Origin: Escherichia coli
Lineage (GTDB): Bacteria; Pseudomonadota; Gammaproteobacteria; Enterobacterales; Enterobacteriaceae
DNA: 64,000 nt
Assembly (NCBI RefSeq): GCF_003334785.1
Contig: NZ_QOWV01000002.1
Strand: one strand, 5' to 3'
Part shown: one piece after another, positions 1-3,000 of the stretch
Layout of the letters: every line of letters begins with the position of its first letter
How positions within the stretch are numbered: position 1 is the stretch's first letter
Position numbers: made by a program

Positions 1-3000
1 CGGCCTGCATTTCTTCAGTCCGGTGGAAAAAATGCCGCTGGTGGAGATTATTCCTCATGCGGGGACATCGGCGCAAACCATCGCTACCACAGTAAAACTG
101 GCGAAAAAACAGGGTAAAACGCCAATTGTCGTGCGTGACAAAGCCGGTTTTTACGTCAATCGCATCTTAGCGCCTTACATTAATGAAGCTATCCGCATGT
201 TGACCCAAGGTGAACGGGTAGAGCACATTGATGCCGCGCTAGTGAAATTTGGTTTTCCGGTAGGCCCAATCCAACTTTTGGATGAGGTAGGAATCGACAC
301 CGGGACTAAAATTATTCCTGTACTGGAAGCCGCTTATGGAGAACGTTTTAGCGCGCCTGCAAATGTTGTTTCTTCAATTTTGAACGACGATCGCAAAGGC
401 AGAAAAAATGGCCGGGGTTTCTATCTTTATGGTCAGAAAGGGCGTAAAAGCAAAAAACAGGTCGATCCCGCCATTTACCCGCTGATTGGCACACAAGGGC
501 AGGGGCGAATCTCCGCACCGCAGGTTGCTGAACGGTGTGTGATGTTGATGCTGAATGAAGCAGTACGTTGTGTTGATGAGCAGGTTATCCGTAGCGTGCG
601 TGACGGGGATATTGGCGCGGTATTTGGCATTGGTTTTCCGCCATTTCTCGGTGGACCGTTCCGCTATATCGATTCTCTCGGCGCGGGCGAAGTGGTTGCA
701 ATAATGCAACGACTTGCCACGCAGTATGGTTCCCGTTTTACCCCTTGCGAGCGTTTGGTCGAGATGGGCGCGCGTGGGGAAAGTTTTTGGAAAACAACTG
801 CAACTGACCTGCAATAAGAAGGTCAAAGCTATATGAATCCGCGCTGAATGGCGGAGTGTTGGTCAAAATGTAAACGCATATTGACTATACTTACGCCATT
901 GAGGTAAAAAACAGCGTTTCATTCGGTGAATGGATAAGGCACAATGCCGGCCACCGTTTTCTTTCTCTGGTTTCAGATGAAAGAAAACGGGCGAATCTGG
1001 TTAACAAAAGCGGTGCAATATGCAAGTTTTTATCATGCGTCACGGCGACGCAGCCCTCGATGCCGCCAGTGATTCCGTTCGTCCTCTGACCACTAATGGT
1101 TGTGACGAATCTCGCCTGATGGCGAACTGGCTGAAAGGTCAAAAAGTGGAAATCGAACGCGTTCTGGTGAGCCCGTTCCTGCGAGCCGAGCAAACACTGG
1201 AAGAAGTAGGGGATTGTCTGAACCTGCCTTCCAGTGCAGAAGTTCTGCCGGAGTTAACGCCCTGCGGCGATGTTGGTCTGGTCAGTGCCTATTTGCAGGC
1301 GTTGACCAATGAAGGTGTTGCTTCGGTACTGGTGATCTCTCACTTACCGTTAGTCGGGTATCTGGTTGCCGAGTTATGTCCGGGCGAAACGCCGCCTATG
1401 TTTACCACCTCGGCCATTGCCAGCGTAACGCTTGATGAAAGCGGAAACGGCACATTCAACTGGCAGATGAGCCCGTGTAATCTGAAGATGGCAAAAGCTA
1501 TCTGATGAGTTCCAAATTATGCCCAATGAGGTAGATTCATTGGGCATAATTGCTCATCAGGCAGCGGATATCTGTCAACCTCACTACTATCGAAGACTCT
1601 CCCCATCTATAAATAAAACACCTTTAACTTTCATTCGGAAAGTATTCTTCTGCGCGTATCTTGATTTTGCCCAAAGTTACATGTTGAAATGAATAATGTC
1701 TGTTTGACACTCATTATCATTTATTAATACAGATAATGGAGAAAATAGAGTTGAATAATCAGGCAGGACGTAATTGAAACTTGATTAAATTCTGGCTATA
1801 GTGTTTATATATTATATCGACAAAAGCGGGTTAATGCCAATCGCATTATATGTTCATTGTTTGTTTTTTAAGCTATTGGCATTCATTGTTGATATGCTTC
1901 CTGTTTTTTCTAAATATATATTTCGTGTTTTTTTAGAAGATCCTTAAGATAATCTTTCCCCTATCAATATATTAATTAAATCTACATTTACTCATTAGTA
2001 AAATTAAATTGAATCAGGGGAGTGAAAACATCACTATTCGACCCCACACCAACGAATACATTTTTTACGACCTGTTTTTTTGGATCGCATGCCGTATTCA
2101 ATGGCTGGGTATAAACATTGGCTATTGACTGAATCAATGTATTGCAATGTTTATATTTTAATTATTTATAGTTTAAGGACAAATAATGAGTAAGTTTGTT
2201 AAAACAGCTATTGCTGCGGCAATGGTGATGGGCGCGTTCACCTCTACGGCAACAATCGCTGCGGGTAACAACGGTACTGCACGTTTTTACGGCACCATTG
2301 AAGACTCAGTGTGTTCTATCGTTCCGGACGATCACAAACTGGAAGTTGATATGGGTGATATCGGTGCCGAAAAACTGAAAAATAACGGCACCACCACGCC
2401 GAAAAATTTCCAGATTCGCCTGCAAGATTGCGTATTTGATACTCAGGAAACAATGACCACTACCTTTACTGGTACCGTTTCTTCTGCAAATAGCGGCAAT
2501 TATTACACCATTTTCAATACCGATACCGGTGCGGCATTTAACAATGTTAGCCTGGCGATCGGTGACTCTCTGGGTACCTCTTACAAAAGCGGCATGGGTA
2601 TTGACCAGAAAATCGTGAAAGATACTGCCACTAATAAAGGCAAAGCGAAGCAGACTCTGAACTTTAAAGCCTGGCTGGTCGGCGCAGCTGATGCGCCAGA
2701 TCTGGGTAATTTCGAAGCAAATACCACCTTCCAGATTACTTACCTGTAAGGCATACCCCCATAGCGACACTGCTATGGGGTATTTAAATGGATTTTGACC
2801 GAACAAGAATAAAAACGGATAAAAACGTGTATGCCTGACCATTCTCTTTTTCGATTACGGATTCTTCCGTGGTGCATTGCGCTGGCAATGTCAGGGAGTT
2901 ATAGCAGTGTCTGGGCTGAAGACGACATTCAGTTTGATTCCCGTTTTCTGGAATTAAAAGGCGACACAAAAATTGATCTGAAGCGTTTTTCCAGCCAGGG

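What the first reader, a model, noticed from the sequence alone, without database searches (positions are those of the whole stretch)
1516..1550. Perfect 14-bp inverted repeat immediately after sixA
ATTATGCCCAATGA-N7-TCATTGGGCATAAT is an exact palindrome 10 bp past the sixA stop, with no U-tract. It could be a U-less terminator or RNA-stability hairpin for the fadJ-sixA transcript, or a protein-binding site insulating the downstream fimbrial promoter region.
Basis: seen in the sequence. Interest (0 to 1): 0.25.

Follow-up and report, generated by a model that had tools for sequence, protein, structure and literature searches.

The report
Hairpin capping the sixA mRNA end
The palindrome is real and is the stem-loop at which the E. 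coli K-12 sixA messenger RNA ends: most likely an exonuclease-blocking cap on a transcript that Rho terminates just downstream, which is an ordinary, already described kind of element.

Summary
The arms are 15 nt, perfect (1515-1529 / 1537-1551, 7-nt loop). A 10-bp outer helix (1501-1510 / 1552-1561) extends them and includes the sixA stop codon. It is the longest close-spaced perfect inverted repeat in the 64-kb window, and no shuffle came near it.

The region is identical to E. coli K-12 MG1655. Published 3'-end maps of K-12 strains place the main sixA 3' terminus at window 1554-1557, 3-6 nt past the inner stem, with no U-tract. A published bicyclomycin experiment reports a Rho termination region at window 1634. 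The 79 nt after the hairpin are C-rich, G-poor and unstructured, like a Rho loading (rut) site.

All Escherichia alleles examined carry a hairpin at this position, with a conserved GCCC/GGGC core and compensatory changes in 9 of 15 pairs. Allele B, allele C and E. albertii follow it with a clear T-run. Allele D has only a weak one, and the K-12 allele (57% of complete genomes) and the rare L008 allele have none.

Best reading: this is the protective 3' stem-loop of a Rho-terminated mRNA, the class described by Dar and Sorek (2018), probably derived from an intrinsic terminator. A protein-binding insulator is not supported. Low interest; essentially already recorded in genome-wide data.

The parts
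1020..1505 (+). sixA coding sequence (phosphohistidine phosphatase SixA), stop TGA at 1503-1505
   Evidence: ORF list. RefSeq annotation of identical E. coli sequence.
1501..1510 (+). 5' strand of the outer helix; it includes the sixA stop codon
   Evidence: RNA fold. The helix is imperfect in about a third of carriers of this allele: A1508T in all 3 genomes sampled out of 1065 with one or more mismatches.
1515..1529 (+). left arm of the perfect 15-nt inverted repeat, AATTATGCCCAATGA
1530..1536 (+). 7-nt spacer GGTAGAT. In the RNA fold G1530-U1536 pair, leaving a 5-nt loop.
1537..1551 (+). right arm of the perfect 15-nt inverted repeat, TCATTGGGCATAATT
1552..1561 (+). 3' strand of the outer helix; it occupies the position where some other alleles have a T-run
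1549..1561 (+). published steady-state 3' termini of the sixA mRNA: dominant positions 1554, 1556 and 1557 (K-12 2456278, 2456276, 2456275)
   Evidence: TRS paper PMC10687069, Supplementary Data 2-4. Coordinate map: K-12 = 2457832 - window.
1562..1640 (+). C-rich, G-poor, unstructured tract; candidate Rho loading (rut) region
   Evidence: Over 1562-1640, C is 29% and G is 10%. Over 1570-1630, C/G = 6.3. MFE is only -2.5 kcal/mol, less structured than shuffles.
1634..1634 (+). published peak position of a Rho termination region (K-12 2456198, minus strand), Rho score 9.3, p = 1e-41. It was computed from 800-nt windows, so resolution is coarse.
   Evidence: Adams et al. 2021, PMC7815308, Supplementary file 2
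2186..2749 (+). yfcV, first gene of the yfc fimbrial operon; the next gene downstream, and the one shielded from sixA read-through

Best explanation
The inverted repeat is transcribed as the last part of the sixA mRNA and folds into a very stable stem-loop that defines and protects the mRNA's 3' end. In this (K-12) allele no U-tract follows the hairpin, so RNA polymerase is not expected to release there. It is inferred to transcribe on into a C-rich, G-poor, unstructured stretch (about 1562-1640), where Rho loads and terminates within roughly the next 100 nt. This keeps sixA transcription out of the yfcV fimbrial promoter region. The 3'-to-5' exonucleases (PNPase, RNase II) then trim the tail back, through the weaker outer helix, until the 15/16-bp inner stem blocks them. 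That leaves the observed ends at 1554-1557. Shown: the structure, its conservation with compensatory changes, the mapped 3' ends, the bicyclomycin-sensitive region downstream, and the base composition. Inferred: the order of events (Rho termination first, trimming second) and the stabilising effect on sixA mRNA. In evolutionary terms the hairpin corresponds to the hairpin at the same position in other Escherichia lineages, where several alleles look like intrinsic terminators. The K-12 allele kept and lengthened the stem but has no T-run.
For: 1. The structure is real. It is a perfect 15+15 nt repeat, -42.4 kcal/mol with z = -6.6, the longest such repeat in 64 kb, and beyond all 100 shuffles.

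2. The region is 100% identical to K-12 MG1655, so published maps apply directly.

3. Three datasets analysed in PMC10687069 place a 'Primary' sixA 3' terminus at K-12 2456275-2456278, which is window 1554-1557. They are RNAtag-seq of Barsheshet, the Term-seq of Dar and Sorek 2018, and the authors' own LB RNAtag-seq. Signal is 0.75-0.84, the published fold is this hairpin, and 'Max U-tract' is 2.

4. Adams et al. 2021 list a Rho termination region at 2456198(-), window 1634. Reads upstream/downstream were 136/73 untreated and 148/738 with bicyclomycin, giving a Rho score of 9.3 and p = 1e-41.

5. Immediately after the hairpin, C/G = 6.3 (1570-1630) and the RNA is unstructured.

6. Dar and Sorek 2018 define exactly this class: precise 3' ends just downstream of stable stem-loops without U-runs, C>G downstream, and trimming by PNPase and RNase II.

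7. Every Escherichia allele and species examined has a hairpin right after the sixA stop, with a conserved GCCC/GGGC core. 9 of 15 pairs change on both sides, 82% of cells are paired against 28-41% in slid controls, and 0 of 500 shuffles reach the observed values. G-U pairs occur on the + strand.

8. Allele B and E. albertii pass the simple terminator scan that the window fails.
Against: 1. The curated Term-seq list of Adams et al. 2021 (three conditions) has no 3' end at 24562xx-24563xx, so the end is not called in every dataset.

2. The Rho score comes from 800-nt windows. The downstream window covers the AT-rich yfcV promoter region, so the extra reads with bicyclomycin could start at de-silenced promoters there rather than come from sixA read-through.

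3. No exonuclease-mutant or half-life data for sixA were available.

4. The 3' end lies inside the outer helix. That needs exonucleases to have opened 4-5 bp of that helix, which is plausible but not shown.

5. Alleles C and D were not called terminators by the simple scan. 'Ancestral intrinsic terminator' is therefore firm only for allele B, E. albertii and their relatives.
Confidence: 0.7

Rival explanations
1. The hairpin is itself a factor-independent terminator that works without a U-tract. Polymerase would release 3-6 nt after the inner stem, and the mapped 3' ends would be true termination points.
For: The 3' ends lie 3-6 nt after a very strong stem. Hairpins at the same position in allele B and E. 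albertii look like intrinsic terminators. The TRS signal of 0.75-0.84 shows a sharp drop in coverage at the site.
Against: There is no T-run: the tail is GCTCATCAGG, the published Max U-tract is 2, and E. coli RNA polymerase needs a U-rich tail for hairpin-driven release (established knowledge of intrinsic termination). A strong bicyclomycin effect has been reported just downstream. The full hairpin ends at 1561, beyond the observed ends, which fits trimming better than release.
Confidence: 0.12
2. The 26-bp composite stem is an RNase III substrate, and the 3' end at 1554-1557 is a cleavage product rather than an exonuclease stop.
For: The outer plus inner helices give about two helical turns of duplex. 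The mapped end lies inside the double-stranded outer helix.
Against: The helix is interrupted by a 4-nt internal loop. No partner 3' end near 1504-1508 is listed in the published tables seen. The outer helix carries a mismatch (A1508T) in about a third of carriers. The supplement of the RNase III cleavage-site paper could not be read, so this rival is untested.
Confidence: 0.05
3. The palindrome is a DNA operator for a dimeric protein that insulates or regulates the downstream yfcV fimbrial promoter.
For: It has perfect dyad symmetry and lies between a housekeeping gene and a silent fimbrial operon.
Against: It lies about 635 bp upstream of the yfcV start codon. The arm sequences differ between alleles while complementarity is kept, and some pairs are G-U, which breaks DNA symmetry but keeps + strand RNA pairing. 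In allele B, allele C and E. albertii the equivalent hairpin carries a T-run on the + strand, a transcript-level feature. The motif is single-copy. No binding data were found.
Confidence: 0.05
4. It is a remnant of a mobile or repeated palindromic element (REP/BIME, MITE, IS end) or a recombination scar at the border of the variable fimbrial segment, with no function of its own.
For: Homology between E. coli alleles breaks exactly at the hairpin, at window 1495-1528. The yfc operon is an Escherichia-specific insertion between sixA and smrB.
Against: There is one copy per genome in 3100 genomes; the only genome seen with two places has the hairpin split by an IS1 insertion. There is no Rfam match. 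Compensatory evolution of the stem across alleles points to selection on pairing. Mapped RNA ends show that it is used.
Confidence: 0.05

Closest known systems
[quoted passage not shown]
   Same: A stable stem-loop lies immediately upstream of a precise steady-state 3' end. No U-run follows it. C exceeds G in the downstream sequence. A bicyclomycin-sensitive region lies downstream. The sixA terminus appears in the re-analysis of Dar and Sorek's own Term-seq data.
   Different: The stem is unusually long and perfect (15/16 bp plus a 10-bp outer helix that overlaps the stop codon). Exonuclease dependence has not been shown for this gene.
Canonical intrinsic (Rho-independent) terminators, including the sixA terminators of E. 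coli allele B and E. albertii
   Same: Same position, 10-15 nt after the sixA stop. Same GCCC...GGGC stem core, related by compensatory changes.
   Different: The K-12 allele has GCTCATCAGG where the others have a T-run, so the defining U-tract is missing.
REP/BIME elements acting as 3' mRNA stabilisers
   Same: A transcribed extragenic palindrome that blocks 3' exonucleases downstream of a gene, with Rho termination further on.
   Different: It is single-copy, A+T-rich and unrelated in sequence to REP. It is not part of a repeat family.

Membership tests
Protective 3' stem-loop of a Rho-terminated mRNA (Dar and Sorek class) | Energetically stable stem-loop immediately upstream of the steady-state RNA 3' end | tested here: met
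   The fold is -42.4 kcal/mol, z = -6.6. Published termini at window 1554-1557 lie 3-6 nt after the inner stem.
Protective 3' stem-loop of a Rho-terminated mRNA (Dar and Sorek class) | No uridine-rich tract after the stem | tested here: met
   The tail is GCTCATCAGG. The terminator scan gave 0 hits. The published Max U-tract is 2.
Protective 3' stem-loop of a Rho-terminated mRNA (Dar and Sorek class) | C-over-G enrichment (rut-like sequence) just downstream | tested here: met
   1570-1630 has C 31% and G 4.9%. 1562-1640 is unstructured, MFE -2.5 kcal/mol.
Protective 3' stem-loop of a Rho-terminated mRNA (Dar and Sorek class) | Read-through downstream rises when Rho is inhibited | tested here: inconclusive
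   A published Rho termination region lies at window 1634, with score 9.3 and p = 1e-41. It was computed from 800-nt windows that include the AT-rich yfcV promoter region, so the origin of the extra reads is not proven.
Protective 3' stem-loop of a Rho-terminated mRNA (Dar and Sorek class) | 3'-extended transcripts accumulate in pnp or rnb mutants | not testable with these tools
   The supplementary tables of Dar and Sorek 2018 are not held.
Intrinsic (Rho-independent) terminator | G+C-containing stem-loop | tested here: met
   The stem has 15-16 bp with a GCCC/GGGC core.
Intrinsic (Rho-independent) terminator | Run of U residues directly after the stem | tested here: not met
   By contrast, allele B and E. 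albertii do meet this feature.
Intrinsic (Rho-independent) terminator | Termination independent of Rho | tested here: inconclusive
   A bicyclomycin-sensitive region has been reported 80 nt downstream. No in vitro data were found.
REP/BIME or other repeated extragenic palindromes | Many copies per genome with a family consensus | tested here: not met
   One place per genome in 3100 genomes. No other copy in the window. No Rfam family.
Dyad-symmetric operator for a DNA-binding protein | Half-site sequence, not just complementarity, conserved among relatives | tested here: not met
   9 of 15 pairs change on both sides between alleles, and G-U pairs are present.
Dyad-symmetric operator for a DNA-binding protein | Demonstrated protein binding | not testable with these tools
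   No binding data were found in the searches made.

The most novel reading that the evidence does not exclude
The loss of the T-run in the K-12-type allele may be an adaptive switch, not a neutral change. It would convert the sixA/yfc boundary from a fixed intrinsic terminator into a conditional, Rho-dependent one. Read-through from sixA into the normally silent yfc fimbrial operon would then depend on Rho activity and on ribosome traffic at the stop codon, which sits inside the outer helix. If so, this would be an allele-specific regulatory link between a phosphorelay phosphatase gene and fimbrial expression.
Probability: 0.07. Interest if true: 0.4.

Novelty: already known. Interest (0 to 1): 0.13.

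Why it matters
It matters little beyond annotation. It gives the sixA transcription unit of E. coli K-12 a defined 3' end (a 3' UTR of about 50 nt) and a likely Rho-dependent mode of termination. It also explains why no intrinsic terminator is predicted there. The allele comparison is a tidy natural example of one hairpin position that carries a T-run in some lineages and none in others. That could serve as a test pair for how the two kinds of terminator differ in insulating a horizontally acquired fimbrial operon.

Tried and rejected
- **Rfam.** A permissive scan of 800-2300 gave only two chance-level hits.
- **Literature on sixA.** Searches with 'terminator', 'ProQ' and 'RNase III' found nothing specific.
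- **Supplements without the data.** The SMRT-Cappable-seq supplement has no sixA entry. No supplements are held for PMC9023263, Dar and Sorek 2018, the Rend-seq annotation paper or the RNase III cleavage paper.
- **Peters et al. 2012.** Its bicyclomycin data are not in the searchable library.
- **Adams et al. 2021.** The curated Term-seq list has no end at the hairpin. This is a genuine negative and is reported as such.
- **Small ORFs.** Each arm contains ATGCCCAATGA, giving 57-codon ORFs on both strands (1519-1692 + and 1374-1547 -). I rejected these as genes. They follow from the palindrome itself, I saw no Shine-Dalgarno sequence in front of them, and the downstream sequence is not homologous between alleles.
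- **Xer/dif-like site or mobile-element end.** Considered by eye and rejected: the arms are oriented the wrong way for a dif-like site, and the sequence is single-copy.
- **Terminator scan on other alleles.** The simple scan did not call alleles C and D. I therefore do not claim that all other alleles are canonical terminators.

Full report
**What is in the sequence**

The window starts inside fadJ, which ends at 817. sixA occupies 1020-1505, with stop TGA at 1503-1505. After a 680-nt A+T-rich spacer come yfcV (2186-2749) and the yfc usher gene. The reported palindrome is present. It is one base longer per arm than stated: AATTATGCCCAATGA (1515-1529), GGTAGAT, TCATTGGGCATAATT (1537-1551).

Folded as + strand RNA it gains a G-U closing pair. 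After a 4-nt internal loop it also gains a 10-bp outer helix, 1501-1510 with 1552-1561, which contains the stop codon. The segment 1490-1580 folds at -42.4 kcal/mol, against -20.4 +/- 3.3 for shuffles (z = -6.6). The - strand folds nearly as well, as any palindrome must.

No T-run follows on either strand, and a simple terminator scan finds nothing in 800-2300. The repeat is the longest perfect close-spaced inverted repeat in the 64 kb; the next best have 11-nt arms. In 100 dinucleotide-preserving shuffles the longest arm was 8-12 nt. The arm occurs nowhere else in the window, and no Rfam family matches.

**Identity of the locus**

Window 1470-2190 is 100% identical to E. coli K-12 MG1655 on its minus strand (annotation). 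The coordinate map is K-12 = 2457832 - window. It is checked by the sixA stop: window 1505 maps to 2456327.

**Published transcript-end data**

The TRS paper (PMC10687069) lists a 'Primary' 3' terminus for sixA in three datasets:
- Barsheshet RNAtag-seq: dominant position 2456275 (window 1557), peak 2456252-2456282.
- Dar and Sorek 2018 Term-seq, re-analysed and converted to MG1655 coordinates: dominant 2456278 (window 1554). The sheet identity was confirmed.
- The authors' own LB RNAtag-seq: dominant 2456276 (window 1556). The published fold is exactly this hairpin, and 'Max U-tract' is 2.

The signal values are 0.75-0.84, and the 3' UTR is given as 52 nt. The RNA therefore ends 3-6 nt after the inner stem, inside the 3' strand of the outer helix.

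Adams et al. 2021 (PMC7815308) did not list this end in their curated Term-seq table. Their bicyclomycin experiment, however, reports a Rho termination region at 2456198 on the minus strand, which is window 1634. Reads in the 800 nt upstream/downstream were 136/73 untreated and 148/738 with bicyclomycin, giving a Rho score of 9.3 and p = 1e-41.

Right after the hairpin the sequence is rut-like. Positions 1570-1630 have 31% C and 4.9% G. Positions 1562-1640 are essentially unstructured, at -2.5 kcal/mol, which is weaker than shuffles.

**Comparison with relatives**

All 5426 complete E. coli genomes have sixA, but only about 3100 keep homology beyond window 1495-1528. The break falls at the hairpin. 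The downstream sequence comes in four main alleles:

| Allele | Representative | Genomes |
|---|---|---|
| A | K-12 / this window | 3100 |
| D | L004 | 1227 |
| C | L002 | 634 |
| B | L001, including O157:H7 | 429 |

Within allele A, 2031 genomes are identical over 1497-1565. Another 1065 are 95-99% identical over that stretch; in the three of these that I sampled, the single difference is A1508T in the outer helix, and the inner palindrome is untouched.

Every allele has a hairpin starting 10-15 nt after the sixA stop, with an invariant GCCC...GGGC core. So do E. albertii, E. whittamii and two other Escherichia lineages. On a 9-allele alignment:
- 9 of the 15 pairs of the K-12 stem change on both sides.
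- 82% of cells are paired, against 28-41% when the partner is slid by 1-3 columns.
- 0 of 500 shuffles reach the observed values.
- Some pairs are G-U on the + strand.

This shows selection on pairing, most simply of the + strand RNA.

What follows the stem varies:
- Allele B and E. albertii have T-runs (GTCTTTTTG, TTCTGTTTT) and pass the terminator scan.
- Allele C has TATTTTTTT but an interrupted stem, and the scan does not call it.
- Allele D has only GTTTCTCC.
- Allele A and the rare L008 type have no T-run.

In other genera of Enterobacteriaceae, sixA is followed directly by the convergent smrB gene, with a G+C-rich hairpin between them. In Escherichia the yfc fimbrial operon lies between sixA and smrB.

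**Interpretation**

The data match point for point the class defined by Dar and Sorek (2018). [quoted passage not shown] They sit just downstream of stable stem-loops that lack U-runs, and C>G sequence follows. The ends arise because PNPase and RNase II trim the Rho-terminated tail back to the stem-loop.

I therefore read the palindrome as the 3'-end-defining, exonuclease-blocking stem-loop of the sixA mRNA. Rho termination in the following ~100 nt would keep transcription out of the yfcV promoter region.

The order of events, and any effect on mRNA stability, are inferred rather than shown. The bicyclomycin evidence is also coarse. Its downstream window includes A+T-rich DNA where de-silenced promoters could contribute reads.

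The main rival is direct termination at the U-less hairpin. It is disfavoured by the missing U-tract, and by the fact that the ends lie inside the complete hairpin rather than beyond it. RNase III processing of the 26-bp composite stem could not be tested. A protein operator is disfavoured by the allele pattern. A repeated or mobile element is excluded by copy number.

**Verdict**

It is an ordinary member of a described class, and its 3' end and Rho sensitivity are already in published genome-wide tables. The only modestly new point is evolutionary. The same hairpin position carries a T-run in some Escherichia alleles and none in the K-12-type allele, which 57% of complete E. coli genomes share.

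Noticed in passing
window 847-903: A strong U-less hairpin lies in the fadJ-sixA spacer (-25.3 kcal/mol, z = -6.3). A published Term-seq 3' end sits at its foot (K-12 2456929 = window 903; Rho score 1.0, intrinsic terminator score 6.7 in Adams et al. 2021). It probably marks the end of the fadIJ transcript, which argues against a simple fadJ-sixA co-transcript.
   Followed up: partly
window 954-990: A second perfect inverted repeat, CCGTTTTCTTTC / GAAAGAAAACGG (12-nt arms, 13-nt spacer; -23.9 kcal/mol, z = -4.1), lies in the sixA leader. A published Term-seq 3' end is at K-12 2456833 = window 999, 21 nt before the sixA start codon, again without a T-run. It may be a premature-termination or processing site upstream of sixA.
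   Followed up: partly
window 1855, minus strand: Adams et al. 2021 also list a Rho termination region on the opposite strand (K-12 2455977 +, score 3.9). This implies an antisense or divergent transcript in the yfcV upstream region running towards sixA.
   Followed up: no
L089 2548-3320 (E. coli strain EC09), equivalent to window 1536-1544: An IS1A element is inserted inside the right arm of the hairpin, with a 9-bp target duplication GATTCATTG. This splits the palindrome in that strain. A second IS1 truncates the usher gene further on.
   Followed up: partly
window 1495-1528 and onward to about 8650: Homology between E. coli lineages breaks exactly at the hairpin. The spacer and the yfc fimbrial operon exist as at least four divergent alleles, and other genera have smrB directly after sixA. 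The terminator hairpin thus marks the border between core and variable DNA.
   Followed up: partly
window 1519-1692 (+) and 1374-1547 (-): Each arm of the palindrome contains ATGCCCAATGA, so 57-codon ORFs beginning MPNE... open on both strands. They are judged spurious because they are not conserved between alleles.
   Followed up: partly
window 1508: A common polymorphism, A1508T, puts a U-U mismatch in the outer helix. It was present in all 3 sampled genomes out of 1065 allele-A genomes that are not identical over 1497-1565. It suggests that only the inner stem is under strong constraint.
   Followed up: partly
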